A DNA stretch of 64,000 bases from an uncultured Candidatus Saccharibacteria bacterium (lineage in GTDB: Bacteria > Patescibacteriota > Doudnabacteria > UBA920), in the NCBI GenBank assembly GCA_964561085.1, contig CAZLNP010000001.1:10213-74212 (forward strand). Direction: 5' to 3'. How positions within the stretch are numbered: position 1 is the stretch's first letter; the number at the start of each line of letters is the position of its first letter. Of this stretch, positions 9-31,627 are shown piece by piece. A model generated the notes under the pieces. That model was not told the DNA's origin. It did no database searches and saw only the letters and a list, made by a program, of their open reading frames with translations. The position numbers and the translations under genes were made by a program.

Positions 9-1403
9 ATGTCCGCGGCAATTATTCTTGGGCAAATTTTTCCTGACGCAACCGCCATTACAGCGACCATTCTTCATGACATCACAGAAGATACCGACAC
101 AACAGACACAAATTTAAAAGAAGAGTTCAGCGAAGAAATTGCTGCGCTCGTAGATGGAGTAACTAAACTAGGCCACGTTCGCTTACGCAACAGCACAGAT
201 GAATACTACGTAGAAAATTTGCGCAAAATGTTTATTGCAACTAGCAAAGACATTCGCGTGATGCTAATTAAACTCGCTGACCGATTGCACAACATGAGAA
301 CAATTGGCGCTCTCTCCCCCGAGAAGCAAACCAAAATCGCCAGTGAGACTTTAGAAATGTATGCGCCCATCGCTGGGCGCCTCGGTATTGGTGCATGGAA
401 AGACGAACTCGAAGATCTATCTTTCAAGATTGTTGATCCAGAGAACTACGAAAAAACTGAACACCTTTTACAAGAACGTTTAGAAGAGCGTCAAAAAGGT
501 ACTAAAGAAATGCAAAAAGAGCTGGCTACAATTTTGCGCGTGGAAGGAATTAAGTTCAGAGATATTTCCGGTCGCATCAAGCGCATTTATTCTCTGTTTA
601 AAAAATTGGATCGCTACGACGGTGACATCACTAAAATCCACGACAAGATTGCCCTGCGCATCATTACTAAATCGACTGCGGATTGTTACGCTGCCTTAGG
701 CGCTATTCATAAACACTTTAGTCCGATGCCAGGCCGTGTAAAAGATTTTATCGCCATGCCAAAACCAAATGGCTACGAAAGTTTACACACCACTGTATTC
801 GATAGCGAAGGGCGTGCTTTTGAAGTGCAAATCCGCACAGATCTTATGCACGAAACTGCAGAACGCGGAATTGCCGCCCATTGGTTCTATGAAGAAACTG
901 GCAAAGATGATAGCGCCACTCCCCGACCGAACAAAGGTCCAAGCTGGTTCAAAGAGCTTCATGCTTGGCAGGAAGAGATGGCATCGCATCCAGAGGAGTT
1001 CTTAGAAGGTTTAAAAATTGATTTCTTCAAAGATCGAATTTTTGTTCTTACTCCTAAAGGTGATGTAAAAGATTTGCCAGTGGGTGCTTCGGTAATTGAT
1101 TTTGCTTTTTCAGTTCACTCTGACTTAGGCTACCAAATGTTAGGCGCTAAAATTAACGGAAAGATGGGGAAAATTTCAGATGAGCTGCATCAGGGAGATG
1201 TAGTGGAAATTCTAAAAGCTAAAAACGCCGCAACTCCTTCCAGGGATTGGCTAGTTTCCGCTAAAACTAGTCATGCCCGCGCCTTAATTCGCAAATACTT
1301 AGCCGAGCATGATAAAGGCCTATTCCAGAGAGTAAGAGAATTAAAACTCCAAGATATTTCCTCTCGTCTACCTGGCCTCCCAACCTTCTTCCGGAAAAAA
1401 TAA
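9..1403 (+). CDS. rel: Bifunctional (p)ppGpp synthetase/hydrolase Rel/SpoT-type (HD hydrolase + RelA_SpoT synthetase + TGS domain; short form without ACT); 5' end runs off the window
   Basis: HD motif HDITEDT, RelA/SpoT synthetase region (YESLHTTV, EVQIRT), TGS region (IFVLTPKGDVKDLP); ORF is open to the window edge. Confidence 0.85.
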   Translation: MSAAIILGQIFPDATAITATILHDITEDTDTTDTNLKEEFSEEIAALVDGVTKLGHVRLRNSTDEYYVENLRKMFIATSKDIRVMLIKLADRLHNMRTIGALSPEKQTKIASETLEMYAPIAGRLGIGAWKDELEDLSFKIVDPENYEKTEHLLQERLEERQKGTKEMQKELATILRVEGIKFRDISGRIKRIYSLFKKLDRYDGDITKIHDKIALRIITKSTADCYAALGAIHKHFSPMPGRVKDFIAMPKPNGYESLHTTVFDSEGRAFEVQIRTDLMHETAERGIAAHWFYEETGKDDSATPRPNKGPSWFKELHAWQEEMASHPEEFLEGLKIDFFKDRIFVLTPKGDVKDLPVGASVIDFAFSVHSDLGYQMLGAKINGKMGKISDELHQGDVVEILKAKNAATPSRDWLVSAKTSHARALIRKYLAEHDKGLFQRVRELKLQDISSRLPGLPTFFRKK

Positions 1404-4200: not shown

Positions 4201-5442
4201 CTATTTCAACTTCTCTGCTAACTCAGCGGTAAATATAGTTTCTTGCTCACGCTTAGCTAAATCTTTGAGTTGAACTGTTTCGGCTTTAACTTCTGTTTCA
4301 CCCATTATAATTGCATATGGAATACTACGACTCTCCGCGTACTTGAATTGCTTATCTAACTTTGCAGCTGAATAATACAGCTCTACGTTAATCCCTTGCG
4401 CACGTAAATCCGTTGCGAGCTTCAAGTAATTTTCCATCAAACTTTCATTTTGATTCAGAATCAAAGCACGGATTGGTTGAGCAAAATTCATTTCACCCAT
4501 ATCTTTTAGTGCATCTATTAGACGATCAACACCGATACTTCCACCGACAGCCGGAAGACTTTGACTAGAGAACTGATCTACTAAGCCATCATAACGACCC
4601 CCACTACAAATACTGCCAAATTCTGGCTTATCTTTAAGGTAAATTTCGAAGACGGTGCCCGTGTAATAATCTAGACCGCGCGCGATGGTTGGATCAAATT
4701 CCACATCGCCTTTTAGACCATACGCTTCAATCATTTTCATGATCTTCACAGTAGATTCAGGAGCTGTAATAAATTTTGGATCAGCCAAACTTTTTGCTCT
4801 TACGATTTCTTCTTCAGGAACTCCCTGAGCTTCCATCTCCGCAACAATTCCATCTACACCAATTTTATCTATTTTATCTATCGCGCGGATAGCTGCGACC
4901 GAGAAATCTTTCAGTATCTCGCGATCGTTTAATCTCACTCTATAATTAGTAACGCCAACAGCTTCAAGCGCCTTACACAAACAAGCAATTACTTCTGAAT
5001 CAGCGACTAGTGAATCTGTACCAACAGCATCTACATCACACTGATAGAACTCACGCAGTCTTCCCTTTTGAGGATTATCCGCACGCCACACTGGTGCAAT
5101 TTGATAACGCTTAAATGGAAAGGTTAACTGACCTTGATTCTGAGCAACATATCGTGCCAAAGGCACGGTTAAGTCATAACGCATAGCGACGTCACGGTCG
5201 CCTTTATCTTTAAATGAATAGACCAACTTTTCATCTTCGCCGTACTTACCCATCAAAATTTCTTTGTACTCCAACACTGGTGTAGACAACGGCAAAAAAC
5301 CAAACCGTTCAAAAACGCTTTGGATACTAGAAAACATTTGCTGACGAGCAAGTTGCTCAGCGGGACCGAAATCTCGGAATCCCTTCAGCAGACGAGGTTC
5401 TATCTTATTCTCTTTTTCTGATTTATCATTTAGATCTGACAT
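4201..5442 (-). CDS. hisS: Histidine--tRNA ligase
   Basis: Class II aaRS motifs including GGRYDGL and AVGGSIGVDRL, C-terminal anticodon-binding domain. Confidence 0.9.
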   Translation of the reverse strand: MSDLNDKSEKENKIEPRLLKGFRDFGPAEQLARQQMFSSIQSVFERFGFLPLSTPVLEYKEILMGKYGEDEKLVYSFKDKGDRDVAMRYDLTVPLARYVAQNQGQLTFPFKRYQIAPVWRADNPQKGRLREFYQCDVDAVGTDSLVADSEVIACLCKALEAVGVTNYRVRLNDREILKDFSVAAIRAIDKIDKIGVDGIVAEMEAQGVPEEEIVRAKSLADPKFITAPESTVKIMKMIEAYGLKGDVEFDPTIARGLDYYTGTVFEIYLKDKPEFGSICSGGRYDGLVDQFSSQSLPAVGGSIGVDRLIDALKDMGEMNFAQPIRALILNQNESLMENYLKLATDLRAQGINVELYYSAAKLDKQFKYAESRSIPYAIIMGETEVKAETVQLKDLAKREQETIFTAELAEKLK

Positions 5443-10732: not shown

Positions 10733-11173
10733 CTAGCTCAGTTTTTCTTTTAAGAGTTTTGCTACAAGTGCACCATCAGCAGTGTTGCCGAAATGCCCTT
10801 TTAGCACACCCATGGCTTGGCCAAAATCTGCTTTTGTCCATCCAGCTTCAGCAATCTTTGCATCGATTACTTTGGCTATTTCTTCTTCACTAACTTGTTC
10901 AGGTAAAAATACTGATAATACTTTTAGTTCAGCTTCTTCTTTATCTGCGGCTTCAGTTCGGCCAGCATCGCGGAAAGCAAGAGCTGCTTCTTTGCGACGC
11001 TTAGCCTCTGATTGAACCAATACTAAAATATCAGCTTCGGAAAGTTCCGAGCCTTTAGAAATTTGTTCATTTTGAATTCTGGTTTTAAGTGCGCGAAGTG
11101 TCTCAACAGTGATTTGCTCACGGGCCTTAACAGCAGTCTGCAATGCAGCTTCTACCTCAGAAAGATTTAGCAT
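10733..11173 (-). CDS. GatB/YqeY-domain protein
   Basis: 146-aa YqeY-like helical protein. Confidence 0.6.
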   Translation of the reverse strand: MLNLSEVEAALQTAVKAREQITVETLRALKTRIQNEQISKGSELSEADILVLVQSEAKRRKEAALAFRDAGRTEAADKEEAELKVLSVFLPEQVSEEEIAKVIDAKIAEAGWTKADFGQAMGVLKGHFGNTADGALVAKLLKEKLS

Positions 11174-11188
11174 GAATTTTTGTTTAGT

Positions 11189-11425
11189 TTAACGACGGCC
11201 GCGAGATGGTTTAACGGGTTTTCCTAGGCGCTTTAGTTCTTCACGAACAATACGCATTTCAGAGCGACGTTGTGCATCTGTACGCAATAAATTACGGCTT
11301 CGTTCCGGCGCGAAAAAGCGCGTCTTACGAGCACGGATTAAAACACCGCTTTGTTGAATCTTACGATTAAAACGGCGTAGTAGGTTATCAAATGATTCGT
11401 TGTCTTTACGTTTTACTTCTACCAA
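11189..11425 (-). CDS. rpsU: 30S ribosomal protein S21
   Basis: VEVKRKDNESFDNLLRRFNRK...RRSEMRIVREELKRL. Confidence 0.9.
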   Translation of the reverse strand: MVEVKRKDNESFDNLLRRFNRKIQQSGVLIRARKTRFFAPERSRNLLRTDAQRRSEMRIVREELKRLGKPVKPSRGRR

Positions 11426-11569: not shown

Positions 11570-12157
11570 TCAAGAATTGATAAAAGGTCGGGCTAAACTT
11601 AGCGCGGCGATAGTTTGTGCATCAGTAATTTCACCGCTATCAATCATTTTGTAAGCTTTCTTTATTGGCACGGTCATCACTTGTTCTATACCCTCTTCAG
11701 CTTGTTCATTATCAGCTAATATTGATAAATCTTGAGCAACATAAACGTAGCCAATCTCGTCTGAAATTCCAGCGAAGGCTTGAAATTTTCCAACTAAACT
11801 CCACCGCTTACCAGTAAGACCTGCTTCCTCTCGCAATTCTCTTTTTGCGGCAAGTAAAGGTTTTTGGTTTTCACTTCCACCACCAGGTAATTCAATGGAT
11901 GTCGTATTTGTTGTATATCTATAAAGCTTGATCAAGTAAATTTCATTTTTTTGATTCAATGCAATAACATAAACAGCTGGGGGTAATACCACCACATTCC
12001 ATACTCCTTTCTTACCATTAGGAGTGATTACTTTATCTTGACGTACGGAATACCAATTATTTTTGTGAACTGTTTTAGAAGATAATTTTTTCCAAGGGTT
12101 TTTCATATATGAATATGATACCAAATCCAATATAAAAAGTATTGCCTGCTTAGTCAA
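11570..12157 (-). CDS. NUDIX hydrolase (true start probably the internal MKNPWKK methionine)
   Basis: NUDIX box GGxxE...REL.EEaG (ELPGGGSENQKPLLAAKRELREEAGL). Confidence 0.8.
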   Translation of the reverse strand: MTKQAILFILDLVSYSYMKNPWKKLSSKTVHKNNWYSVRQDKVITPNGKKGVWNVVVLPPAVYVIALNQKNEIYLIKLYRYTTNTTSIELPGGGSENQKPLLAAKRELREEAGLTGKRWSLVGKFQAFAGISDEIGYVYVAQDLSILADNEQAEEGIEQVMTVPIKKAYKMIDSGEITDAQTIAALSLARPFINS

Positions 12158-12179
12158 TACTTTTTATTTAAGCTTAAAT

Positions 12180-12635
12180 TTATTCTCCCCTGATCCTAGC
12201 TGCTAACACCTTAAGCTTTTCATCATCTTCGCGCTTATAATCGTGAGAAGAAATGTAACCTTCGTATTTTTCAAAGTACTTATCAATCGAGGATTCAATT
12301 GGTTTCCATTCAGGGATATTTGTACCATGCATCGGATAAAGCTTGGCATGGATGTGATCCACTCCAAATCCTTCAAATACCATGGCAGTGCGGCCAACAT
12401 CCTCTAACTTTGAGTCCAACAACTTGGCTACTTTCTTAGTTGCGACCATCAAATTAGCAAGGACATCATCTGGCAGATCAAAAGCATAACTTGGATAATG
12501 CTTTTTAGGAATTACTACACTAACACCTTCTGTGTTTGGGAATATGGTTAGGAAGGCTAAATGCGCATCATCTTCCCAAATGCGGTGTGAGGGTAACTCT
12601 TCTTTTATAATTTTGCAAAATATACATTCATTCAT
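12180..12635 (-). CDS. HIT-superfamily protein with atypical H-x-H-x-K motif (Hint-like CIFCKI N-terminus)
   Basis: CIFCKIIKEE N-terminus; VDHIHAKLY where the canonical third His is Lys. Confidence 0.65.
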   Translation of the reverse strand: MNECIFCKIIKEELPSHRIWEDDAHLAFLTIFPNTEGVSVVIPKKHYPSYAFDLPDDVLANLMVATKKVAKLLDSKLEDVGRTAMVFEGFGVDHIHAKLYPMHGTNIPEWKPIESSIDKYFEKYEGYISSHDYKREDDEKLKVLAARIRGE

Positions 12636-12678
12636 ATATTTATGATAACAAAAAATCGCCCTAAGGGCGATTTTAGAT

Positions 12679-13023
12679 TTACTCTTCTAGTTGTTTTCCG
12701 CCTAGCAAGTGGATATGAAGGTGATTAATAATCTGACCGCCTTCTTTACCATTATTCCATACTAATTTATAGCCGCTCTTATCAATTCCTGTTTCCGTAG
12801 CGTAGTCTCTAGAGATTAGGATCATTTCTGCAATAAGATCCGCATCATCTTTACTTAGTTCGTTCATTGAAGGAATATGCTTCTTTGAAATCACTTGAAC
12901 GTGCACCGGAGCCTTTGGCATGATATCTTGAATGATTAAAGCATTCTCAGTTTCGTGCAAAATATTTGATGCGGCTGTGCGATTAGCGATGCTGCAAAAA
13001 ATGCAGTCTGGGTTGATGTCCAT
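12679..13023 (-). CDS. HIT-family (Hint-like) nucleotide-binding hydrolase
   Basis: Canonical histidine triad NHLHIHLLGG. Confidence 0.85.
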   Translation of the reverse strand: MDINPDCIFCSIANRTAASNILHETENALIIQDIMPKAPVHVQVISKKHIPSMNELSKDDADLIAEMILISRDYATETGIDKSGYKLVWNNGKEGGQIINHLHIHLLGGKQLEE

Positions 13024-13027
13024 ATTT

Positions 13028-14329
13028 TTATCTTTCTAAACGTTTTTTAACTTCTACAATAATTTTATCATATGAGAAGACTTCCTGCATGCCAGATTTA
13101 ACATCACGTAGAATTACCATATCATCCATAGCTTCCTTCTGACCCATAATTAGAGCAATTGGCGCTTTGCTTTCTTCAGCAAGCTTAAGTTGGTTCTTAA
13201 CACCCACTGTACCGAAGTGGTCATGAACTTTAACATCAACCGCAATCAAGTCGCGGAACAAGCGAAGACTACGCTTTGAGGCTAACTCCCCTAGTGGGAC
13301 TAGGAATACTTCGCTGTGAATTTCATGTTTAGCTTCGATTTCAGAAAGCTCCATTGCACGAGACAATCCTGAAAGGCTACCACTAAAACCGAACGCAGGC
13401 ATAGGCTTGCCAGTAATATTCTTCAAAAGCAATTCATGATGAGCCGCTTCACCAATTACAATAGTTTCATTTCCTTTTTTATATTTGATAACTAGGCTTG
13501 TACCACTGGACCCTTCTGGGCCAACATACAATTGGTTAAGCTGATACGGAAGGCTTAGTTCATCAAGAGCTTCTAATATGTCAGTAAAGCGCTTCTTCTC
13601 GTTTGGAGCTAAGAAGTCTACTATTGCGGGAGCTTCTGCTGTTAAAAGCTGACAGCCAACTTTGTCGCATCGTAAAACGTTTAGAACTCGGCCCTGTAAA
13701 TGATTATTACAATCTTCACACAGCTCAAAATCTTTACCTTTTAAGAAATCTTTAAGGACGTTCGAATAAGCGGTCTGCACTGCGGCATCGCCCATAGTGT
13801 TAATTTCTAGGCTAACATCTTCACTCAAACCTAGGCGCTGTGTTAAATCCCAAATTGCACTAACTACCTGGGCTTCTGTTAAATGATTAAAAGTACCTAA
13901 TACTTCTAATCCAAATTGATAGCTAAAGTGCACGGCTTGGCGTTCATCAATTTCCGCGACATTGCCAATGTACAACCACTTTGATAGAGATTGTTCATCT
14001 AGCTGAGTCTTGTTTTGAACATAATGACGGAGTACTGAAGGCAACACTGCAGAACGAACACCTAGAGCTTTACCTCCTGTTTGAGCATAAAGAATTCTTT
14101 CTAAAGCTTGAGGTTGGTTCTTGTAAAAATCTGTGTAAACTTTTTCTTCTTCTAGAATTGCTGTTTCAACCGGCTGAAATCCGTAAAGCTGCGCAACAGT
14201 GCGAAGCTGATGCATAATAGTACTCCAATAAGGATTTGTCTGAGTTACAATATCTCTCAAGCCAGTGACTGCACCAGCTTTGGGTAATTTAGGAGTGACT
14301 ACGATTGTTTTCTTAGCAATTTTTTGCAT
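13028..14329 (-). CDS. HisRS-like class II aaRS paralog with degenerate catalytic motifs (HisZ-like / pseudo-HisRS) plus C-terminal anticodon-binding-like domain and a Cys4 insertion
   Basis: Collinear with the bona fide hisS of this window (GLRD..., motif 1 region, motif 2 region) but GGRYD is GEAAHHE and the GxGxDR region is GLSGLSR; Cys cluster CEDC...CDKVGC. Confidence 0.6.
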   Translation of the reverse strand: MQKIAKKTIVVTPKLPKAGAVTGLRDIVTQTNPYWSTIMHQLRTVAQLYGFQPVETAILEEEKVYTDFYKNQPQALERILYAQTGGKALGVRSAVLPSVLRHYVQNKTQLDEQSLSKWLYIGNVAEIDERQAVHFSYQFGLEVLGTFNHLTEAQVVSAIWDLTQRLGLSEDVSLEINTMGDAAVQTAYSNVLKDFLKGKDFELCEDCNNHLQGRVLNVLRCDKVGCQLLTAEAPAIVDFLAPNEKKRFTDILEALDELSLPYQLNQLYVGPEGSSGTSLVIKYKKGNETIVIGEAAHHELLLKNITGKPMPAFGFSGSLSGLSRAMELSEIEAKHEIHSEVFLVPLGELASKRSLRLFRDLIAVDVKVHDHFGTVGVKNQLKLAEESKAPIALIMGQKEAMDDMVILRDVKSGMQEVFSYDKIIVEVKKRLER

Positions 14330-14355: not shown

Positions 14356-14967
14356 TTACTTGAAAGTGGCTAATGGAAATTCTGGTGATCCGAAAGCGTC
14401 TAACGGGAAAACTCTTAGCCAAGCTGTCCCAACAATGTCGTGCTTCGGCAGTATCCCCCACACTCTGGAGTCACTGGAAGCTAAGCGGTTATCACCCAAC
14501 ACATAGTATTCATCGCTACCCAGAGTCACCAATTCATCTTTTCCAAAAGTAATGTCTTGGTTAGAAAGATATGGCTCTTCTAACACAGATCCATTTGGAT
14601 ACTCACTATTATATACATATACTTTCCCATTTTCTACTTTAACTTTTTCACCAGGCAAACCAATGACGCGCTTGATGAAATACTGAGAAGTATCTTTCGG
14701 ATAGCGGAATACAATTACATCACCGCGAGCAGGTTCATTGAAGCGATAGGAAACTTTATTTACAACTAAGTATTCTCGGTTGTGGAAGTTTGGAACCATG
14801 GAAGAACCGGATACGATAAATGGTTCAGCTACAAAAAACCGGAATCCTATCATCACTACAAAGGCGATAATAACGATTCTGGCTAACTCCCAGAGAAACG
14901 AGCCAACGGAAGCATTTTTTTCCGGAGGTGTTTCTACACTTTCAATTTCAACGTGGTTTACAGACAT
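14356..14967 (-). CDS. lepB: Signal peptidase I
   Basis: N-terminal TM anchor, catalytic SGSSMVPN serine motif, S26 C-terminal box. Confidence 0.85.
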   Translation of the reverse strand: MSVNHVEIESVETPPEKNASVGSFLWELARIVIIAFVVMIGFRFFVAEPFIVSGSSMVPNFHNREYLVVNKVSYRFNEPARGDVIVFRYPKDTSQYFIKRVIGLPGEKVKVENGKVYVYNSEYPNGSVLEEPYLSNQDITFGKDELVTLGSDEYYVLGDNRLASSDSRVWGILPKHDIVGTAWLRVFPLDAFGSPEFPLATFK

Positions 14968-18512: not shown

Positions 18513-18905
18513 TTACTCAAATAAAGCTGCTACAAGGGCAGTTTTTATTTTTGCGAACGTTGCCTTATCAATCATGCCCATTTTCCTTAACAATCTTTTA
18601 GAATCTATAAGCCTTATTTGAGAAAAAATAGCAGACGATTCTCGATCACTAATTCTACCTATATAGAAATAATATTTCCCTATCTTCCTTTTTCCTGTCA
18701 TGGGTATTACTAATAATGAATCACGATTAAATCCTTTTAATATCAATACTGGGCGATCGTAATTTTGGCCGGTACCATCTTGTTCAGACCCTATATTAAT
18801 ACCAAGTGAACACCACCAAACTTCTCTCGGATGGTAATATGCTTTCTTTGGTTGGAAATTTATTTTCTTTTTAACTAAATTCCATTCGTCAAAACTTTTA
18901 TCCAT
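18513..18905 (-). CDS. MazF/PemK/Kid-family endoribonuclease toxin-like protein with no adjacent antitoxin gene
   Basis: REVWWCSLGINIGSEQDGTGQNYDRPVLIL and C-terminal IDSKRLLRKMGMIDKATFAKI match the Kid/PemK pattern (GEIW.V.LDPT.G.EQ.G.RP.L). Confidence 0.65.
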   Translation of the reverse strand: MDKSFDEWNLVKKKINFQPKKAYYHPREVWWCSLGINIGSEQDGTGQNYDRPVLILKGFNRDSLLVIPMTGKRKIGKYYFYIGRISDRESSAIFSQIRLIDSKRLLRKMGMIDKATFAKIKTALVAALFE

Positions 18906-24360: not shown

Positions 24361-26034
24361 TTAAACCATACTCTTGGGTCTGTAGCTCAGTTGGTAGAGC
24401 AGTGGCCTTTTAAGCCATTTGTCGCGGGTTCGAATCCCGCCGGACCCACCAAATGAGTCTTGCTCGAATATAGGATTGCCTTTAGTTTTATTACGGCATA
24501 AGTAATCCAACGGTTCTTGCAAGACAGCACGGACAATTTGTCCATCACGCATATACAATTCTTTGAATAACGTTCGAGCCAAGAGAGCCTTCATTTGAGG
24601 CTCTTTTGCGTTTTGGTAGGCATACGCGCAACTAACCGTTAGTGATAGTGCAATCTCAACAGTACGGACGACTCCCGCAATTTTACTTTCAACTTTACCG
24701 AGTTCATCAGTTAACTTTGTATCTTCCATTCCTAATTCAGCCATAACCGTATGGTACAAATCCATATCTCCAGAGGTGTTATTTTCTTTATCAACTAACT
24801 GAAGAACTAAGTTTTTCTTCTGCCGTTTAATGTTCGCTACTTTCCCTAGTATATCCTTACGGGCTTTTTCATAGATAACATGTTCATCAGAAAACAATCC
24901 CCTGACTTTTGCTTGAAGCTTTTCAGTAGTAGATACAGGCAGGTTGATAGTTTGAAGAAGTTTCTCAAACTGATTTTCATACTCAGACTCATGATGGTAC
25001 TTCTGACTACAAGGTACTTTCCTTTTCTTGATAGCCTTTAGACAACGAAGATACCGATAGATGTTCTTTTTACGAGTTACCTGCTCATCACTAGTCATTT
25101 TACTACTGCACTCATCGCAGTATGAGATGCCTTTAAGGATAGAAAACAAACGCCACTTCCGACTTGAACTACTAGAGCGTGATGAGCATACCGCTTGGGC
25201 TTTATCGAATAACGCACGATCTAAAAATAGTTCGTGGTTACCATTTTCATTTACAACTCCGTCCCATATAATATGCCCAATATAGAATTTGTCTTGGAGA
25301 ATGCGAGCCAAATAGCTAGCTTGCAAAACACTGCGAGTCTGACCTTTAAATAAACGAAGTGGAAACCCTTCATCAATAAGCTGTTCAGCTAAATCACGAG
25401 TTGACCAGTTGCCAGTAGCATACAGTTCATATGCCCTAGTGACCCATTTAGCCTCTGTCCAGTCTACTTCTATCCACGCCTTAACTTTACCAGTAGACGC
25501 TTTCTCCTGAACATTTTTATATCCATAAGGGGCTGTCCTTGGCCAACCCCCAGCTTTCGCTTTCTGTATTAGATTGTTCTTAACTCGGCGACCATGTTGA
25601 GCAGAATAGAATTCTGCTAGTGAAGATAGGATTCCTTCCAACATTTGACCCTCAGGGCTGTCATCAATACCTTCTGTGGCGGAAATTAATTTAACATTGT
25701 GTTTACGCAATGCGACTTTAATAAGTGAGAGGTCATCACGATTGCGAGCTAGGCGGCTTAGGTCGTAAACAGTGATTGCCTGAACAGACTTATCTTTTTC
25801 ACAACGATTTAGCATATCCAGCAGTGCTGCACGATCCATTGTGCGAGCACTCAGTCCTGCATCTGTGTAAATGTCTGTCTCAAGGTTAAATGTGTAGCCA
25901 TTTTGCTCTGCGTATTCTGTACATTTAGCTTGCTGTGTTGGGAGAGCAATGCCTTTTTCGGCTTGCTGGTCGGTTGATACCCGTAGATAAATGAGGGTAA
26001 TACCTTTTGATTGATTTATTGATTGTTCGTTCAT
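24361..26034 (-). CDS. Large serine recombinase (resolvase catalytic domain + recombinase domain + zinc ribbon + coiled coil). The annotated 3' end reads antisense through the whole tRNA-Lys, so the true C-terminus is probably shorter or artefactually extended
   Basis: N-terminal LIYLRVSTDQQ catalytic serine motif, recombinase domain, Cys cluster YCDECSSK...CLKAIKKRKVPC; C-terminal GIRTRD is the typical antisense-tRNA translation. Confidence 0.85.
   Translation of the reverse strand: MNEQSINQSKGITLIYLRVSTDQQAEKGIALPTQQAKCTEYAEQNGYTFNLETDIYTDAGLSARTMDRAALLDMLNRCEKDKSVQAITVYDLSRLARNRDDLSLIKVALRKHNVKLISATEGIDDSPEGQMLEGILSSLAEFYSAQHGRRVKNNLIQKAKAGGWPRTAPYGYKNVQEKASTGKVKAWIEVDWTEAKWVTRAYELYATGNWSTRDLAEQLIDEGFPLRLFKGQTRSVLQASYLARILQDKFYIGHIIWDGVVNENGNHELFLDRALFDKAQAVCSSRSSSSSRKWRLFSILKGISYCDECSSKMTSDEQVTRKKNIYRYLRCLKAIKKRKVPCSQKYHHESEYENQFEKLLQTINLPVSTTEKLQAKVRGLFSDEHVIYEKARKDILGKVANIKRQKKNLVLQLVDKENNTSGDMDLYHTVMAELGMEDTKLTDELGKVESKIAGVVRTVEIALSLTVSCAYAYQNAKEPQMKALLARTLFKELYMRDGQIVRAVLQEPLDYLCRNKTKGNPIFEQDSFGGSGGIRTRDKWLKRPLLYQLSYRPKSMV
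24376..24451 (+). tRNA. tRNA-Lys (anticodon UUU), encoded CCA
   Basis: Hand-folded cloverleaf: acceptor GGGTCTG/CGGACCC, D-arm GCTC/GAGC, anticodon stem GTGGC/GCCAT with loop CTTTTAA, T-arm GCGGG-TTCGAAT-CCCGC, 3' CCA. Confidence 0.9.
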
Positions 26035-26219
26035 AATAGTTACTGTTAATTATTTGGATAATAAAACCCTGCCTAGGACTCGGTGTCGCAGCCGAGGTGC
26101 TGTAAACTTTGCCTAGGTAGGGCTTTGGGATTCTATGTCGCAGATAATTGTTACTTTAATTATATCATACGACCTGCCTCTACCAGAGTCTGGTCTTTGC
26201 TGACAATGCTGTCTTGCTG
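26035..26219. promoter_or_regulatory. Repeat-containing regulatory region upstream of the recombinase gene
   Basis: Direct repeats tgcctagg...tgtcgcag (x2) and ttgctgacaa / ttgctgtcaa motifs. Confidence 0.35.
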
Positions 26220-27773
26220 TCAAAAAGGAACTTCACTTACGCTTATATCCTCATTTTCATTACTTAAAGGTTCAACGCTCGGCGTGACAGCAAGGGTAGT
26301 AATTTGAATGTTGCGCAAACCATCTCCCCGATCACGGGTTACTAAGATTCCTCGCTCTCGCAGATTAGGAATGACTTCTTCGAGTTTTCGCCATAGCCAG
26401 TTTGCTTGCTTAGGCAAAACTTTTTGTTTGTCCAACCCTATTCCATCAGCTACATCTTTTAGTTCAGTTAAAAGTGCAGTTGGAGTTCCCTGCCACTCAG
26501 TATGAGTTTTCATAAACTGCATTATCATAAAGGCTACGCTAGATGTTTCAATTACCTCATCATGTTGAAGTTGGCGATTAGCTTTAAGAGCAGAAATGAA
26601 AACACTTTTACCAACCCCTAGTACTTCACTCGCTCCTGCACCAAACTGTGCAAATCCTGCCATGCGATACTGTTCTAAACCTTCAACTTTAGGATTATCT
26701 TGTCGGTACTTCATAGTCTGTGCTATTACAGTAAACAATGCGCCAAGCAAACGAGGGCGAGCTTCTTCAAATCGTGCGAATAGTTTTTGCTCATCTTCAT
26801 AGTTTTCAGGGGGTTGTAGATTCACTATCAAAGCACGGTCTAATATGTCTGGTTTATCTATTGGCAAGTTAATGCCGTTCATACCAAGCACTCGCTGAAA
26901 GGAATAGATAATGTCGTCGTCATTTGTAAATAACTCTCGCTTACTAAACCCTTCTCCAGTTACTACACGGCATAGCAAGTCTGAAAAATCAGATTTTATT
27001 GGACTCAAGTTATCTAGTGGCAGAAAGTAGTTATGACTGGCTTGTTGAATGAACTCATTTAAATCTCGCTGTGGACCAACTGTTTCAAGCATTGAGGGGT
27101 CAAGTAAACGCCGCAATAACTTAAACAATGTGGTCTTTCGTGAACCCTTCTCACCTTTAACGACAAGTATAGGATGTGGGAAGCCTTGAATAAGAGCAGT
27201 TGCAAGCCATATTAGTAATAGCAATCGCTCTTTCTGTTCGGCTGGCTCTGGAATGTAGTCAAAGACTTCTTCCAACTTTCCGCCCTCTATGGGTGTAACC
27301 TGTGCCTTTTGATGTGCAAACCGATAGAATAAGATTGGAGGCTTTTCTACTACTGTCCAACCATTCTCGGTAATTTTGACTGCCTTGCCATCACCCAAGT
27401 CATACCACAGCTCGTTACCTAAGTTAGCTGCTCGAACATGAAGTTCTAATTGTTTGCCCTCGTGCAATGCATGTCCTTCTAGAGTTCGTACTGCGGTTTC
27501 TATAATCGCCGAGTTAATGGGCTTACCTAGCGACTTCCAGCCTAAATGCGATAGCCATGACTTAAATTCACGATTGCGGAGTCGCAAGATTTTACCACCA
27601 TTCCCCTCCATCGCAATGAACGCTGAACCAAACTGGTCGTGAAATAGAACAGATTCGCCTTTTAGTACTTTATTGATAAGAACAGTTGTTTGACCTTTAT
27701 CTTCCTCATTTAAGATTTCACTTTGAGCTGAATCTTGTACAGCCGTATTATCTCCGATAGGAGTTTCTTCCAT
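26220..27773 (-). CDS. Replication-associated P-loop NTPase, P4-alpha/D5-like SF3 helicase-primase C-terminal type
   Basis: Walker A VVKGEKGSRKTTL in a D5/P4-primase-helicase-like context; 517 aa. Confidence 0.55.
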   Translation of the reverse strand: MEETPIGDNTAVQDSAQSEILNEEDKGQTTVLINKVLKGESVLFHDQFGSAFIAMEGNGGKILRLRNREFKSWLSHLGWKSLGKPINSAIIETAVRTLEGHALHEGKQLELHVRAANLGNELWYDLGDGKAVKITENGWTVVEKPPILFYRFAHQKAQVTPIEGGKLEEVFDYIPEPAEQKERLLLLIWLATALIQGFPHPILVVKGEKGSRKTTLFKLLRRLLDPSMLETVGPQRDLNEFIQQASHNYFLPLDNLSPIKSDFSDLLCRVVTGEGFSKRELFTNDDDIIYSFQRVLGMNGINLPIDKPDILDRALIVNLQPPENYEDEQKLFARFEEARPRLLGALFTVIAQTMKYRQDNPKVEGLEQYRMAGFAQFGAGASEVLGVGKSVFISALKANRQLQHDEVIETSSVAFMIMQFMKTHTEWQGTPTALLTELKDVADGIGLDKQKVLPKQANWLWRKLEEVIPNLRERGILVTRDRGDGLRNIQITTLAVTPSVEPLSNENEDISVSEVPF

Positions 27774-27925
27774 TATTGTTGCCTTTCTTTGTTAGCAAGT
27801 TGTTCCCCAGCATGAAGCTGTCGAGCAATAGTTGCTAATGCCAATGCCAAACAATCCACAAGTCGATTTTCTTCGGCTTGCATATCCATATCATTAGTTT
27901 CGATTGTTTGAAGATTCTCTGACAT
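27773..27925 (-). CDS. Small ORF (50 aa) translationally coupled (TAATG overlap) to the helicase-like gene
   Basis: MSENLQTIETNDMDMQAEENRLVDCLALALATIARQLHAGEQLANKERQQ; stop overlaps the next start codon; no strong RBS. Confidence 0.3.
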   Translation of the reverse strand: MSENLQTIETNDMDMQAEENRLVDCLALALATIARQLHAGEQLANKERQQ

Positions 27926-28032
27926 TGATTAAATTTAATAAATCCGCTAGGGGCTAGGTAGTTCCATGAGCTAGACGGCTCTACCCAGCCCTTAACGGAC
28001 TGTTTGCTCATGGAATTTTGCCCAACAAAAAA

Positions 28033-28066
28033 GCTATAGACTTTTCTATAGCTTATTGGACTTTTA
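28033..28066 (-). terminator. Terminator after the 243-aa island gene
   Basis: agctataga-cttt-tctatagct perfect hairpin followed on the minus strand by a T-run. Confidence 0.55.
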
Positions 28067-28091
28067 ATGGCGTGTATAAGAATTTTGTGTA

Positions 28092-28823
28092 CTACACTTG
28101 TTTGCGTCTGAGATTCTCTTTTGAGACGATTTTACCAACACTTCCCTCGTCAACTTTCTGTTTAAGTTCAGTAGGTAACTGACGCAGTATTTCCTTACCT
28201 GGTAAATGTCTATTCTGATAAATCAAATCATCTCGTCTAACATTTAATGGTTTGCGTTTACGAAACTTGCCAATTTTAATTTCAGGTTTACTGTACTTCC
28301 TTTTCAATGGCATGATTTCTGTAGGGTTAACCTTTTGAACATAGGCAAGGATGTCTCTCAGTGAAGCGTATGGGCTAACTAATATGCTTATTGGAAACTG
28401 TTCACTAAGTTCTACGGTATTCATGCTGTGAGTTTCAGCTACTCGACATAAAGCAAATTTGTTTTTATAAAGTGGCAGTGGCAATACATCATCAAAAAAT
28501 ATGACAGGATGTATCATTTCGTTCCACTCTTTTGGGTCTAAATTGAACTTGCGACATATCGTGTCAACTTCCTTAAGCAAAGCTGATAGCGCGGTATGGT
28601 CATTACCCAAATATTCAATAAGCCATTTTTCTTGGGCACTATCATTATTGAAACCCTTTGCAGGAATACCCAACTTCCTTCTAAGCTTAAGAATTTCACT
28701 TCGAAAACGATCGCTTCTTACCAAGGCTTCAAAGTGATGAACTAACTTCTTGTGCGCTTGGGTAGTATGAAGTTTTTTGGCATCTCGAAATGTGGGAGTA
28801 TCAGCATTGTGAGTGATTTTCAT
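28092..28823 (-). CDS. Hypothetical protein (243 aa), basic C-terminus
   Basis: Clean ORF in the island; no recognisable domain. Confidence 0.45.
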   Translation of the reverse strand: MKITHNADTPTFRDAKKLHTTQAHKKLVHHFEALVRSDRFRSEILKLRRKLGIPAKGFNNDSAQEKWLIEYLGNDHTALSALLKEVDTICRKFNLDPKEWNEMIHPVIFFDDVLPLPLYKNKFALCRVAETHSMNTVELSEQFPISILVSPYASLRDILAYVQKVNPTEIMPLKRKYSKPEIKIGKFRKRKPLNVRRDDLIYQNRHLPGKEILRQLPTELKQKVDEGSVGKIVSKENLRRKQV

Positions 28824-28970
28824 TGCTCATGGAATCAATTACATGCCTAAAGTATAACAAAATCAGTATAAATAACCACTCTTTACTTAACAAGTTCAGA
28901 GTTCAAAAAAACCAACAATTTTATCCTCACAACAAGAGAGAAGGGGCCTAAAACAGAATATGCCGAAATC

Positions 28971-29606
28971 CTACGACATCTTAATCTTTGCTTGGGATAA
29001 CTTGTCATAAGTCTGTTCAGCTGCCTCAGCCCCTAGCCATTTCTGTTCAGCCACTATCCAACGCAGGAACGGCTTAGCGACCTTGTTGCCATAGACCTTA
29101 CGTTTGAAGTGTTTTAACATACCATCGACTTTCATAGCCCGATTCATACGATATGCCATCTCAGCTAATACTCCGCCTCTGCGATTGATGCTCTGCAACT
29201 CATAGCTGAGTTCCAGGCAGGAGCGACAGGAGAAGTAATTAGGCTTGCGGTCAGGGCGAAGATACAACTTACTACGTAAACTCCCGCACATAACGCAAAA
29301 GAAGAATGGCTTGTTTCCAAAGTGAGTCTCGCCAGTCAAGATAGTGATTGCTTGAGTTTGGGCAATTCCTTTATATGGGTAAAAGACTTGAACCTTAAAT
29401 GGATCGCCATCAATAACCTTGTAGCCTATGAGCAGAGTATCGTACTGGCTAGATATATAGGCTTTACCAGACTTAGGCTCCCCCTCTTTGTTTGGGTGGA
29501 GCAGATTACGACTTAGAGAGCCAATAGATAATGAAAAGCACTCCTCCACAGTCATTTTGGGATAGAGTTTTTGCTTGTTTAATTGATTGAAGAATTCTTG
29601 TTCCAT
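28971..29606 (-). CDS. Hypothetical protein (211 aa) with Cys4 zinc-ribbon-like motif
   Basis: CVMCGS...CRSC cysteine pairs. Confidence 0.45.
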   Translation of the reverse strand: MEQEFFNQLNKQKLYPKMTVEECFSLSIGSLSRNLLHPNKEGEPKSGKAYISSQYDTLLIGYKVIDGDPFKVQVFYPYKGIAQTQAITILTGETHFGNKPFFFCVMCGSLRSKLYLRPDRKPNYFSCRSCLELSYELQSINRRGGVLAEMAYRMNRAMKVDGMLKHFKRKVYGNKVAKPFLRWIVAEQKWLGAEAAEQTYDKLSQAKIKMS

Positions 29607-29845
29607 ACCTTAATTTTAAATCAAGTCAGCAGGACAGTATAGACGGCATAATTTGAACATCTTATGCAGAGGTTTCCCTACACAGGACTCCTGAGGATAT
29701 AGAAAGGATTGTTTACCAACCACTCCCCACCCACCCCCTTCATACTCTCTGTGTTCCTAATACAATTCCTCTTTAATGAATTGCAATTCAAACCGCCACC
29801 CACCTGTGAGTGGCTTGTTAATCATTAAACGAAAGGGTTACTCAA

Positions 29846-30363: not shown

Positions 30364-30476
30364 TACCAGATGAGACTCTGAATGTTTTTTAAAATTCCTG
30401 GCTTTATGTCGGGTTAAGCGTTTTGGTAGTGATCGTACAACAAAACTACCAACTCTAACAATTAAACTATCCATAT

Positions 30477-30833: not shown

Positions 30834-30926
30834 ATTAAATAGGGTTAAGTCCTCAATTGGACTATGCCCTATTTTTTTCTACACCCCATATTGCATTGGC
30901 GCTCAACCGATAAAACATAACCCTCA

Positions 30927-31610: not shown

Positions 31611-31627
31611 ATCATTAAAATTTACTA

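What the first reader, a model, noticed from the sequence alone, without database searches (positions are those of the whole stretch)
11570..14329. Degenerate HisRS-like paralog co-clustered with two HIT-family proteins and a NUDIX hydrolase
In addition to a canonical hisS at 4201-5442, the window holds a second, collinear class-II-aaRS-like gene (13028-14329). It keeps the overall HisRS architecture and a C-terminal anticodon-binding-like domain. Its catalytic signatures are replaced: GGRYDGL becomes GEAAHHELL, the AVGGSIGVDRL motif-3 region becomes FGFSGSLSGLSR, and motif-2 arginines are lost. It also carries a Cys4 insertion (CEDC...CDKVGC). It is followed on the same strand by a canonical Hint-type HIT protein (HLHIHLL), an atypical HIT protein with H-x-H-x-K, and a NUDIX hydrolase. 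Class II aaRS enzymes make aminoacyl-adenylates and diadenosine polyphosphates, Hint proteins hydrolyse aminoacyl-AMP, and NUDIX and Fhit-like enzymes degrade Ap4A. The clustering therefore suggests a coherent adenylate or dinucleotide-polyphosphate handling module built around a non-catalytic aaRS scaffold. HisZ-like roles in histidine biosynthesis are unlikely because no his biosynthesis genes are seen here.
Basis: partly seen in the sequence, partly recalled or inferred. Interest (0 to 1): 0.6.

Follow-up and report, generated by a model that had tools for sequence, protein, structure and literature searches.

The report
Dead histidyl-tRNA synthetase relic, kept anticodon-binding domain
This small-genome (Patescibacteria) bacterium keeps, next to a working histidyl-tRNA synthetase, a second copy that has lost every residue needed for catalysis but has an almost frozen tRNA-anticodon-binding domain; it is the conserved leftover of the original hisS gene, not the core of a four-gene nucleotide-handling module.

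Summary
On the minus strand, 13028-14329 encodes a full-length HisRS-like protein. It is followed by a Hint-type HIT protein, an HxHxK HIT protein and a NUDIX hydrolase.

The HisRS-like protein lacks the E. coli equivalents E83, T85, R113, R259, R287 and R311. The "Cys4 insertion" is not an insertion. The same four cysteines occur in 39 of 51 catalytically intact bacterial-type HisRS representatives.

The four-gene module is not conserved. Across about 80 related genomes only LepB -> pseudo-HisRS -> Hint recurs. A terminator-like hairpin follows Hint in 39 of 72 loci, against 3 of 81 after the pseudo-HisRS. HIT2 and NUDIX occur only in the closest relatives.

Intact bacterial-type HisRS genes occupy the same LepB-HisRS-Hint-YqeY-FtsA-FtsZ slot in other lineages. 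The hisS-hinT pairing is therefore ancestral, and this gene is a positional ortholog of a true hisS. A second, eukaryote/Bacteroidetes-like HisRS at 4201-5442 is intact.

The relic is under strong purifying selection, centred on the anticodon-binding domain (77% mean identity, against 44-46% in the catalytic core). The residues equivalent to the GUG-anticodon contacts are invariant in 78 of 78 sequences.

Most likely it is a non-catalytic tRNA(His)-binding protein. I found no paper describing it. It is a new variant of a known kind.

The parts
13028..14329 (-). Pseudo-HisRS (433 aa). It is a full-length bacterial-type HisRS fold with all catalytic Arg/Glu/Thr residues replaced.
   Evidence: ORF. 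TIGR00442 score 175.6 bits, below the 286.75 cutoff. Residue mapping. AF2 model and fold search. 668 relatives at E<=1e-5; the 120 best listed are all at least 53% identical.
13031..13324 (-). Anticodon-binding domain of the pseudo-HisRS (aa 336-433). This is the most constrained part of the protein.
   Evidence: Mean pairwise identity is 0.77, with 56 of 98 columns at least 95% identical, against 0.44-0.46 in the catalytic core. E399, R408 and Q415 are invariant in 78 of 78 sequences. By identical spacing they map to the T. thermophilus anticodon contacts E388, K397 and Q404. The domain is about half identical to the ABD of the intact positional ortholog P0160.
13535..13789 (-). Insertion domain (aa 181-265), holding the four invariant cysteines C204, C207, C221 and C226 (nt 13652-13720).
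   Evidence: The four Cys are present in 78 of 78 family members. They are also present in 39 of 51 intact HisRS representatives. The region aligns with the S. aureus and E. coli insertion domain.
12679..13023 (-). HIT1, a Hint-type histidine-triad protein (HLHIHLL). It starts 4 nt after the pseudo-HisRS stop.
   Evidence: Pfam HIT/DcpS_C and NCBIfam HinT-like matches. Sequence. It is adjacent to the pseudo-HisRS in about 74 of 80 loci.
12652..12674 (-). Terminator-like hairpin (10-bp stem plus a T run) between HIT1 and HIT2. It probably ends the lepB-pseudoHisRS-hinT transcription unit.
   Evidence: Analogous hairpins follow HIT1 in 39 of 72 related loci. The comparison figures are 3 of 81 after the pseudo-HisRS, 4 of 77 after LepB, and 0-4 in shuffles.
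12180..12635 (-). HIT2, a Hint-branch HIT protein whose third histidine is replaced (HIHAK). It is a lineage-specific accessory gene.
   Evidence: aligned to B. subtilis Hit, HYHMH. Found in only one other locus, L016.
11570..12157 (-). NUDIX hydrolase resembling ADP-ribose pyrophosphatase / NudE. It is a lineage-specific accessory gene. The true start is probably the ATG at 12106.
   Evidence: Found only in L003 and L007 among the related loci.
14356..14967 (-). Signal peptidase I (LepB), the conserved upstream neighbour.
   Evidence: It lies upstream of the (pseudo-)HisRS in essentially all related loci, and upstream of intact HisRS orthologs too.
4201..5442 (-). Functional HisRS of the eukaryote/Bacteroidetes-like type. 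It is the presumed sole aminoacylating enzyme.
   Evidence: TIGR00442 score 407.6 bits, above the cutoff. All catalytic residues are present. Best PDB matches are 6nhi and human cytoplasmic HisRS. It co-occurs with the pseudo-HisRS within the fetched locus (up to 8 kb of flank) in about 19 of the ~80 fetched loci. 27 contig lengths are shared between the two hit lists.
10733..11425 (-). rpsU and yqeY, the conserved downstream neighbours. They open the next unit of the syntenic block, which continues with ftsA and ftsZ.
   Evidence: A promoter-like site lies at 11573-11544 with 11 of 12 matches.

Best explanation
The gene at 13028-14329 is the positional ortholog (relic) of the ancestral bacterial-type hisS of this Patescibacteria lineage (Doudnabacteria and relatives).

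Aminoacylation is now carried out by a second HisRS of the eukaryote/Bacteroidetes-like type, encoded about 8 kb away. The old copy lost its histidine-, ATP- and transition-state-binding residues and its G-1-reading motif-2 loop. It was nevertheless retained as a pseudo-enzyme.

What selection preserves is:
- the anticodon-binding domain, with the residues that read G34, U35 and G36 in real HisRS;
- the Cys4-containing insertion domain;
- the motif-1 dimer interface;
- a Lys-rich N-terminal tail.

I therefore infer that it acts as a dimeric, non-catalytic protein that binds the anticodon arm of tRNA(His), for example to buffer, protect, sense or hand over that tRNA.

It is co-transcribed with lepB and hinT because it inherited the ancestral lepB-hisS-hinT operon. 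HIT2 and NUDIX are later, strain-level additions in a separate transcription unit.

Shown: loss of the catalytic residues, positional orthology, purifying selection centred on the ABD, and the conserved operon structure.

Inferred: tRNA(His) binding and its physiological role.
For: - Catalytic residues are lost across 78 family members: R259eq is Gly in 77 of 78, T85eq is Leu in 78 of 78, the motif-2 loop is hypervariable, and R311eq varies.
- The fold is intact and matches bacterial HisRS.
- Positional orthology: intact HisRS P0160, P0135 and P0172 all carry E83, R113, R259, R287 and R311. P0160 scores 314 bits against S. aureus HisRS. P0160 lies in the full slot Pth<-|LepB->HisRS->HIT->YqeY->FtsA->FtsZ. 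The short contigs of P0135 and P0172 show only part of it: P0135 has Pth<-|LepB->HisRS->HIT, and P0172 has LepB->HisRS.
- The same block is present in about 80 genomes that carry the dead copy.
- The two HisRS types differ. The relic is closest to S. aureus and E. coli HisRS. The active copy is closest to 6nhi and human HisRS.
- Purifying selection: dN is 0.10-0.20 against saturated dS, comparable to LepB, Der and the active HisRS.
- The constraint pattern is inverted. In the relic the ABD is 0.77-0.79 identical and the catalytic part 0.49-0.53. In the active HisRS of the same genomes the ABD is 0.44 and the catalytic part 0.66.
- E399, R408 and Q415 are invariant. They match, with identical spacing, the T. 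thermophilus E388/K397/Q404 anticodon contacts (PMC4357726).
- About two thirds of the ABD positions that are >=95% conserved in the family carry the consensus residue of intact bacterial-type HisRS, and most of the rest are conservative substitutions.
- The ABD is about 50% identical to that of P0160, against 28% for the whole protein.
- A basic N-terminal tail is shared with the intact orthologs.
- Terminator-like hairpins follow hinT in 39 of 72 loci, against 3 of 81 after the relic.
Against: - There is no direct evidence of tRNA binding.
- The mapping of anticodon contacts rests on motif spacing through E. coli, not on a structure-based alignment to 4rdx.
- The acceptor-end (G-1) recognition loop is not conserved, so binding would rest on the ABD. 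In real HisRS the ABD contributes only weakly to recognition (PMC4357726).
- A highly conserved ABD could equally serve a protein partner.
- I could not test at whole-genome level that genomes with an intact LepB-adjacent HisRS lack the second HisRS. The direction of displacement is therefore inferred.
- The family-specific conserved E294 and H298 in the old active site are unexplained.
Confidence: 0.55

Rival explanations
1. The dead HisRS is a scaffold for an adenylate / dinucleoside-polyphosphate handling module, together with two HIT proteins and a NUDIX hydrolase. Either the proteins form a complex, or the scaffold presents aminoacyl-AMP or Ap4A to them.
For: - All four genes are co-directional and close together.
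- Hint adjacency and probable co-transcription are conserved across about 74 of 80 loci.
- Translational-coupling-like spacing: a 4-nt gap here and a 4-nt overlap in L087.
- From general knowledge, Hint enzymes hydrolyse aminoacyl-adenylates.
Against: - HIT2 and NUDIX are absent from nearly all relatives.
- In the window they lie behind a terminator-like hairpin.
- The NUDIX protein resembles ADP-ribose pyrophosphatases.
- The ATP-binding arginines and the histidine pocket are gone, and the motif-2 loop is unconstrained. There is therefore no conserved adenylate site to scaffold.
- The HisRS-Hint pairing predates loss of catalysis.
- The whole block is syntenic, so adjacency carries little specific signal.
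Confidence: 0.1
2. The conserved anticodon-binding domain has been repurposed to bind a protein partner or another RNA rather than tRNA(His). Examples are a regulatory or adaptor subunit of another enzyme, as in HisZ-HisG or the aaRS-like POLG2, or a factor tied to the neighbouring envelope and division genes.
For: - The ABD is more conserved than in any active HisRS of the same genomes. That fits a new, tighter constraint.
- About 19 near-invariant ABD positions differ from the intact-HisRS consensus, for example P345, D360, G376, N379 and P390.
- E294 and H298 are family-specific invariants.
- There is conserved synteny with lepB, ftsA and ftsZ.
Against: - Most invariant ABD residues, including the anticodon-contact triad, are the ancestral HisRS residues.
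- Most of the 'novel' positions are conservative aliphatic swaps.
- The synteny is equally present for intact HisRS.
Confidence: 0.2
3. It is a HisZ-type regulatory subunit of ATP phosphoribosyltransferase. NCBI's pipeline names some members this way.
For: - It is a catalytically dead HisRS paralog.
- It gives weak TIGR00443 hits, and some sources use that name.
Against: - TIGR00443 score is 51.9 bits against a cutoff of 271.65.
- It has a complete HGTP_anticodon domain with conserved anticodon contacts.
- No hisG or any other his gene appears among the window ORFs of at least 110 aa (plus the smaller ORFs around the locus) that I scanned, nor among the Pfam-annotated neighbours in the five fully listed related loci.
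- It is a positional ortholog of hisS.
- From general knowledge, Patescibacteria mostly lack amino-acid biosynthesis.
Confidence: 0.03
4. It is still an enzyme with new chemistry in the old active site, for example a hydrolase or ligase using the conserved E142, E294 and H298.
For: - E142 is invariant in 78 of 78, E294 in 76 of 78 and H298 in 77 of 78. All line the former histidine/ATP pocket.
- Class II aaRS paralogs with new activities exist (general knowledge: AsnA, EpmA, amino acid:carrier-protein ligases).
Against: - The three class II ATP/transition-state arginines are absent, and the motif-2 loop is hypervariable.
- The catalytic core is the least conserved part of the protein.
- E142 is simply the retained E131 of HisRS.
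Confidence: 0.07
5. It is a decaying pseudogene with no function.
For: Loss of all catalytic signatures.
Against: - The reading frame is intact in about 80 species at 43-100% identity.
- dN is far below the saturated dS.
- 56 of 98 ABD columns are nearly invariant.
Confidence: 0.01

Closest known systems
Canonical bacterial-type (class IIa) histidyl-tRNA synthetase, e.g. S. aureus 1QE0, E. coli 1KMM, T. thermophilus 4RDX
   Same: - Same three-part architecture and predicted fold.
- Same genomic slot as intact orthologs.
- Retained: the motif-1 region, the Cys4 insertion domain, the Q127/E131 equivalents and the ABD anticodon-contact residues.
   Different: - E83, T85, R113, R259, R287 and R311 equivalents are replaced, and the motif-2 (G-1/acceptor) loop is unconstrained.
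- It scores below the hisS equivalog cutoff.
- The ABD, not the catalytic core, is the most conserved region.
HisZ, the HisRS-like regulatory subunit of hetero-octameric ATP phosphoribosyltransferase
   Same: A stand-alone bacterial HisRS paralog without aminoacylation residues. Annotation pipelines give this name to some family members.
   Different: - It fails the HisZ model cutoff.
- It keeps a bona fide anticodon-binding domain.
- There is no hisG or his operon context.
- It arose in situ from hisS within a housekeeping block.
HisRS-like domain of the eIF2alpha kinase GCN2 (PMC11363354; PDB 8t7t)
   Same: - A catalytically dead HisRS fold, including an ABD-like domain, that is used for binding tRNA rather than charging it.
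- 8t7t appears among the fold hits.
   Different: - GCN2's domain is one module of a large eukaryotic kinase and binds many uncharged tRNAs.
- This protein is stand-alone and bacterial.
- It retains the His-anticodon-specific residues.
- It has no attached effector domain.
Hint / HinT and class II aaRS (LysRS/LysU) aminoacyl-adenylate hydrolysis
   Same: A Hint-type HIT gene is co-transcribed with a HisRS-family gene. In the intact orthologs this could reflect His-AMP turnover.
   Different: In the window the aaRS partner cannot make adenylates. No interaction or shared substrate has been shown. The link is inherited gene order.

Membership tests
Histidine--tRNA ligase (TIGR00442 hisS equivalog) | Whole-protein score at or above the curated cutoff of 286.75 bits | tested here: not met
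   175.6 bits. The other copy, at 4201-5442, scores 407.6 bits.
Histidine--tRNA ligase (TIGR00442 hisS equivalog) | Class II motif-2 and motif-3 arginines and the HisRS-specific residues (E. coli E83, T85, R113, R259, R287/Y288, R311) | tested here: not met
   These positions read A, L, E, G, H/H and G in the window protein. None of the arginines is conserved across 78 relatives.
Histidine--tRNA ligase (TIGR00442 hisS equivalog) | Catalytic + insertion + HGTP anticodon-binding domain architecture and fold | tested here: met
   Pfam PF13393 and PF03129. The full-length alignment to 1qe0 has E=4e-33. The AF2 model has pLDDT 80, with Foldseek top hits to bacterial HisRS at TM 0.6-0.7.
Histidine--tRNA ligase (TIGR00442 hisS equivalog) | Anticodon (GUG)-contacting residues of the ABD | tested here: met
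   E399, R408 and Q415 are invariant in 78 of 78. Their spacing is identical to T. thermophilus E388/K397/Q404. The mapping is by motif spacing, not by structural superposition.
Histidine--tRNA ligase (TIGR00442 hisS equivalog) | Histidylation of tRNA(His) / ATP-PPi exchange activity | not testable with these tools
   This needs biochemistry. The sequence predicts no activity.
HisZ (TIGR00443, ATP-PRT regulatory subunit) | Score at or above the curated cutoff of 271.65 bits | tested here: not met
   51.9 bits, and the match covers the N-terminal half only.
HisZ (TIGR00443, ATP-PRT regulatory subunit) | Partnership and genomic association with short-form HisG / the his operon | tested here: not met
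   No HisG or any other his biosynthesis domain was found in any window ORF of at least 110 aa. The Pfam-annotated neighbours in related loci are LepB, HIT, S21, YqeY, FtsA and FtsZ. Whole genomes were not searched.
GCN2 HisRS-like domain | Embedded in a multidomain eIF2alpha kinase | tested here: not met
   It is a stand-alone 433-aa ORF with only HisRS and ABD domains.
HIT superfamily, Hint branch (HIT1, 12679-13023) | HIT domain above the Pfam cutoff, with an intact H-x-H-x-H-x-x motif | tested here: met
   PF01230 scores 72.5 bits (cutoff 21.5), and the motif is HLHIHLL. It is below the E. coli HinT equivalog cutoff, 77 against 206 bits.
HIT superfamily, Hint branch (HIT2, 12180-12635) | Intact histidine triad | tested here: not met
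   PF01230 scores 41.2 bits, above the cutoff. The triad reads H-I-H-A-K, so the third His is replaced by Lys when aligned to HYHMH of 1y23.
NUDIX hydrolase, ADP-ribose pyrophosphatase-like (11570-12157) | NUDIX domain and Nudix box GX5EX7REUXEEXGU | tested here: met
   PF00293 scores 48.9 bits, cutoff 21.1. The box reads GGGSENQKPLLAAKRELREEAGL, with the REUXEE core intact and the first Glu replaced by Gln (read). Best PDB matches are NudF and ADPRase. Substrate was not tested.

The most novel reading that the evidence does not exclude
The protein is a stand-alone bacterial counterpart of the GCN2 HisRS-like domain. In this reading it is a dedicated, non-catalytic reader of tRNA(His). It would sense, sequester or shield that tRNA, for example by reporting uncharged tRNA(His) to an effector. 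Candidate effectors are the co-transcribed Hint or the short Rel enzyme encoded in the same window. Alternatively it could protect the GUG anticodon loop from anticodon nucleases. It would have evolved by in-situ exaptation of a displaced synthetase in ultra-small Patescibacteria.
Probability: 0.1. Interest if true: 0.8.

Novelty: new variant of a known kind. Interest (0 to 1): 0.5.

Why it matters
Catalytically dead aminoacyl-tRNA-synthetase relatives (HisZ, the GCN2 HisRS-like domain, POLG2) are classic cases of enzyme scaffolds reused for regulation.

Here a whole clade of genome-reduced bacteria, which discard almost everything dispensable, has kept a dead HisRS. It is at least as conserved as the active HisRS (dN 0.16-0.20 against 0.16-0.20 in two pairs), and selection has shifted from the active site to the anticodon-binding domain.

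This gives a clean natural experiment on synthetase displacement and exaptation. The intact and dead versions sit in the same operon slot in sister lineages. It also points to an unstudied tRNA(His)-directed function in Patescibacteria.

On the practical side, it shows that the database names 'histidyl-tRNA synthetase' and 'ATP phosphoribosyltransferase regulatory subunit' given to these proteins are both wrong.

Tried and rejected
1. Four-gene module. Annotating about 80 related loci by BLAST showed that HIT2 and NUDIX are not conserved. The slot between the pseudo-HisRS and rpsU normally holds only Hint.

2. 'Cys4 insertion' as a novelty. Rejected, because the motif is common in intact HisRS.

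3. HisZ. Rejected on model score, domain content and context.

4. Pseudogene. Rejected on conservation and dN.

5. dN/dS ratios. dS is saturated even for the closest usable pairs, so only dN comparisons with neighbouring genes are reported.

6. tRNA(His) gene inspection. No tRNA-His lies in the window or in 50 related loci. Only tRNA-Lys and tRNA-Val were found, so the G-1/C73 features of the lineage could not be checked.

7. Taxon names for the divergent degenerate clades. Cluster look-ups returned almost no names.

8. Direct residue alignment to T. thermophilus HisRS. The PDB tool printed only the top five alignments, and 4rdx/1adj were never among them. The mapping therefore uses motif spacing through E. 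coli.

9. NJ tree of 143 representatives. The fully degenerate proteins cluster together, but partially degenerate ones are scattered among intact ones. The tree is too crude to decide between a single loss and repeated loss.

10. Literature. Seven full-text searches found no description of this family.

11. Whole-genome test of 'intact LepB-adjacent HisRS means no second HisRS'. This was not possible, because only one genome-collection scan was allowed and loci are limited to +-10 kb.

Full report
**What is at the coordinates**

All four genes of the finding lie on the minus strand:
- an HisRS-like ORF, 13028-14329, 433 aa;
- a Hint-type HIT protein, 12679-13023, with HLHIHLL;
- a second HIT protein, 12180-12635, with HIHAK;
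- a NUDIX protein, 11570-12157.

Signal peptidase I lies upstream (14356-14967). rpsU, yqeY, ftsA and ftsZ lie downstream. A second HisRS gene lies at 4201-5442 on the same strand.

Pfam finds tRNA-synt_His and HGTP_anticodon in both HisRS genes. Against NCBI's hisS equivalog model the 4201-5442 copy scores 407.6 bits, with a cutoff of 286.75. The 13028-14329 copy scores only 175.6 bits. It scores 51.9 bits against the HisZ model, whose cutoff is 271.65.

**Loss of the catalytic apparatus**

I aligned the protein to S. aureus and E. coli HisRS. I also made a MAFFT alignment with E. coli numbering. The replacements are:
- LRPEGT (E83, T85) becomes VRSAVL.
- Motif-2 FRHERP...R (R113, R121) becomes AEIDER...H.
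- The catalytic R259 of LVRGLDYY becomes Gly.
- GGRYD (R287, Y288) becomes AAHHE.
- The motif-3 R311 of GLERL becomes Gly.

My first recollection of E. coli numbering was wrong. R259 is in RGLDYY, not in GGRYD. I corrected this by computation.

In 78 family members:
- the R259 equivalent is Gly in 77;
- the T85 equivalent is Leu in all 78;
- the motif-2 loop is hypervariable, with an Arg somewhere in it in only 35 of 78 and never at a fixed position;
- the R311 equivalent is A, K, G, L or V.

Q127/E131 equivalents, the motif-1 region (YGF...E) and the overall fold are kept. The AlphaFold2 model has mean pLDDT 80. Its best PDB fold matches are bacterial HisRS structures, including the tRNA complex 4rdx.

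**Corrections to the observation**

The 'Cys4 insertion' is not an insertion. The CEDC...C...C segment aligns with the ordinary insertion domain of bacterial-type HisRS. S. aureus has FCSDC...ILDC there and E. coli has EDCKRR.

I examined the 150 best representatives from a profile search of 1.84 billion proteins. The four cysteines are present in 39 of 51 proteins that keep all five core catalytic residues. The motif is an ancestral feature, probably a structural zinc knuckle. It is invariant in the family but not distinctive.

The NUDIX protein is most similar to ADP-ribose pyrophosphatases (NudF, ADPRase) and to NudE, not to Ap4A hydrolases.

HIT2 belongs to the Hint branch, with the third histidine replaced by lysine.

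**How widespread the protein is**

A word-indexed search found 668 relatives. The top 120 are all about 430 aa and at least 53% identical.

A scan of one genome per species returned 112 matching loci, of which 80 were fetched. They are labelled Candidatus Doudnabacteria, Patescibacteria group, or generically 'uncultured Candidatus Saccharibacteria'. Databases name the members either 'histidyl-tRNA synthetase' or 'ATP phosphoribosyltransferase regulatory subunit'.

Seven full-text literature searches found no description of this family.

**Neighbourhood conservation**

I annotated the loci by BLAST with the window's proteins. Nearly all show the block Pth<-Der<-LytR<- | LepB->pseudo-HisRS->HIT1->rpsU->YqeY->FtsA->FtsZ.

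- HIT1 follows the pseudo-HisRS in about 74 of 80 loci.
- HIT2 appears in only one other locus (L016).
- NUDIX appears in two (L003, L007), both among the closer relatives (100% and 74% identical pseudo-HisRS).
- The gap between the pseudo-HisRS and rpsU is typically 500-650 bp, just enough for HIT1.

In the window a 10-bp-stem hairpin followed by a T run lies between the HIT1 stop and the HIT2 start, at 12652-12674.

Stable hairpins with T-rich tails, of unrelated sequence, occur within 80 nt after HIT1 in 39 of 72 loci. The comparison figures are 3 of 81 after the pseudo-HisRS, 4 of 77 after LepB, and 0-4 of 72 in shuffles.

The conserved transcription unit is therefore lepB-pseudoHisRS-hinT. 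HIT2-NUDIX is a separate, strain-level addition. The four-gene 'module' is not conserved.

**The decisive context result**

Catalytically intact bacterial-type HisRS genes occupy the same slot in other lineages.

P0160 has LRPEGT, FRHENPQAGRFRQF, LVRGLDYY, GGGRYD and GIERL. It scores 314 bits against S. aureus HisRS. It lies in Pth<- | LepB->HisRS->HIT->(70 aa)->YqeY->YbeY->FtsA->FtsZ. The HIT gene overlaps the HisRS gene by 4 nt. No second HisRS lies within 10 kb.

P0135 is also intact and lies in Pth<- | LepB->HisRS->HIT. P0172 follows LepB. Partly degenerate forms, such as P0136 with R259K and R311E, and other fully degenerate clades (P0140, P0132) sit in the same slot.

Two conclusions follow:
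- The window's dead gene is the positional ortholog of a true hisS.
- The hisS-hinT pairing is ancestral, not something assembled around a non-catalytic scaffold.

**Two HisRS types**

The dead copy is closest to classical bacterial HisRS: S. aureus at E=4e-33, and E. coli. The active copy is closest to Elizabethkingia 6nhi and human cytoplasmic HisRS, and it lacks the bacterial insertion domain.

The two genes co-occur within the fetched locus (up to 8 kb of flank) in about 19 of the ~80 fetched loci. In addition, 27 contig lengths are shared between their respective hit lists, which I take as a proxy for both genes lying on one contig.

The most economical reading is functional displacement of the ancestral bacterial-type enzyme by a second HisRS. 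I could not test at whole-genome level that lineages with an intact LepB-adjacent HisRS lack the second type.

**The relic is maintained by selection, mainly on its anticodon-binding domain**

Against four relatives, dN is 0.10-0.20 while dS is saturated. That is the same range as LepB, Der and the active HisRS.

Mean pairwise identity over 78 sequences is:
- 0.46 for the N-terminal catalytic part;
- 0.60 for the insertion domain;
- 0.44 for the C-terminal catalytic part;
- 0.77 for the anticodon-binding domain, where 56 of 98 columns are at least 95% identical.

In the active HisRS of the same genomes the pattern is reversed, with the catalytic part at 0.66 and the ABD at 0.44.

The T. thermophilus HisRS-tRNA(His) structure shows which residues read the anticodon (PMC4357726):
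- G34 is read by E386-E388;
- G36 is read by K397 and the K399 backbone;
- U35 is read by Q404.

The motif G-x-x-E-(8)-K/R-x-x-(4)-Q has the same spacing in E. coli (GESE...K..L....Q), in the window's active HisRS, and in the relic (GQKE-AMDDMVIL-R-D-V-KSGM-Q). In the relic E399, R408 and Q415 are invariant in 78 of 78 sequences.

About two thirds of the ABD positions that are at least 95% conserved in the family carry the consensus residue of intact bacterial-type HisRS. Most of the rest are conservative substitutions.

The ABD is about half identical to that of P0160, although the whole proteins are only 28% identical. A Lys-rich N-terminal tail of about 23 aa, averaging 5.3 K/R against 0.65 D/E, is shared with the intact orthologs.

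**Interpretation**

Shown:
- the protein cannot use the class II mechanism;
- it descends in place from hisS;
- it is selected for its ABD, its insertion domain and its dimer-interface features;
- it is co-transcribed with lepB and hinT.

Inferred:
- it still binds the anticodon arm of tRNA(His), without charging it;
- that binding is its function, whether buffering, protection, sensing or hand-over.

I put about 0.85 on 'dead positional ortholog of hisS under selection'. I put about 0.5 on 'tRNA(His) anticodon binder'. That gives 0.55 for the combined statement.

Alternatives:
- The ABD now binds a protein partner (0.2).
- New chemistry using the family-specific E294 and H298 (0.07).
- HisZ (0.03). 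No HisG or other his biosynthesis domain was found among the window ORFs of at least 110 aa (plus the smaller ORFs around the locus) that I scanned against Pfam.
- A pseudogene (0.01).

**Comparison with known systems**

It works most like the HisRS-like domain of GCN2, a dead HisRS fold used to bind tRNA. It is, however, a stand-alone bacterial protein that keeps His-anticodon-specific residues.

It is not HisZ. It fails the model cutoff, it has an ABD, and it has no his context.

It is not a HisRS by function, although it is one by descent and fold.

I rate it a new variant of a known kind, the kind being aaRS-derived pseudo-enzymes.

**Verdict**

The finding is real and moderately interesting, but for a different reason than proposed. 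The cluster with two HIT proteins and a NUDIX hydrolase is mostly an accident of local gene order. What stands out is a clade-wide, strongly conserved dead synthetase with an anticodon-binding domain that has barely changed across the family.

Noticed in passing
window 12652-12674 (-): A perfect 10-bp stem (AAAATCGCCC / GGGCGATTTT) with a T run lies between HIT1 and HIT2. Analogous hairpins of unrelated sequence follow the Hint gene in 39 of 72 related loci, against 3 of 81 after the pseudo-HisRS and 0-4 in shuffles.
   Followed up: yes
L003 4700-6956 and L011, compared with window 11570-13023: A contig with a 100% identical pseudo-HisRS and a 99% identical NUDIX carries a Hint allele that is only 70% identical, and it has no HIT2. 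A second contig of the same assembly has an 89% identical pseudo-HisRS. The slot between the pseudo-HisRS and rpsU looks like a strain-level replacement hot spot, or else the bin mixes strains.
   Followed up: partly
representative proteins P0136, P0138, P0142, P0147 etc.; loci L083, L085, L086: About 100 of the 150 best representative hits lack at least one of E83, R113, R259, R287 or R311. Many keep GGRY but have R259K and R311K/E. One of them, P0136, sits in the same LepB-adjacent slot. Degeneration of this HisRS seems widespread and graded across Patescibacteria. I could not tell whether the partly degenerate forms are still active, or whether they are the only HisRS in their genomes.
   Followed up: partly
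L031-L082, about 300-1000 bp upstream of LepB (e.g. L031 6877-6953): A tRNA-Val(CAC) gene lies between LytR and LepB in about 30 related loci. It is absent from the window and from its closest relatives.
   Followed up: no
window 24361-32842: A large serine recombinase (Resolvase + Recombinase + Zn ribbon) abuts and overlaps tRNA-Lys(UUU) at 24376-24451. It is followed by five ORFs with no Pfam match (26220-32842). This may be an element integrated at the tRNA gene.
   Followed up: no
window 57059-58957 and 59131-61053 (+): Two tandem full-length RNase J paralogs lie here, each with metallo-beta-lactamase, beta-CASP and RNase J C-terminal domains.
   Followed up: no
window 9-1403 (+): A RelA/SpoT homolog with HD, synthetase and TGS domains ends after the TGS domain at 464 aa. 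It therefore lacks the usual C-terminal ribosome-binding and regulatory domains. Its N-terminus may run off the window.
   Followed up: no
window 18513-18905 (-): A MazF/PemK-like toxin ORF lies next to pth. No obvious antitoxin was examined.
   Followed up: no
window 14264-14329 (-), aa 1-22 of the pseudo-HisRS: There is a disordered (pLDDT about 30) Lys-rich N-terminal tail. Its composition is conserved across the family, and the tail is also present in the intact positional orthologs P0160, P0135 and P0172.
   Followed up: partly
window 13436-13456 (-), aa 292-298 of the pseudo-HisRS: The former GGRYD motif has become G-E-G/A-G/A-Y/H-H-D/E. E294 is conserved in 76 of 78 and H298 in 77 of 78. 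This is a family-specific conserved Glu/His pair in the old active site, and it is unexplained.
   Followed up: no
window 11570-12157 (-): The first Glu of the Nudix box is replaced by Gln (GGGSENQ...RELREEAGL). The listed TTG start is probably wrong, and an ATG 17 codons downstream (12106) fits better.
   Followed up: no
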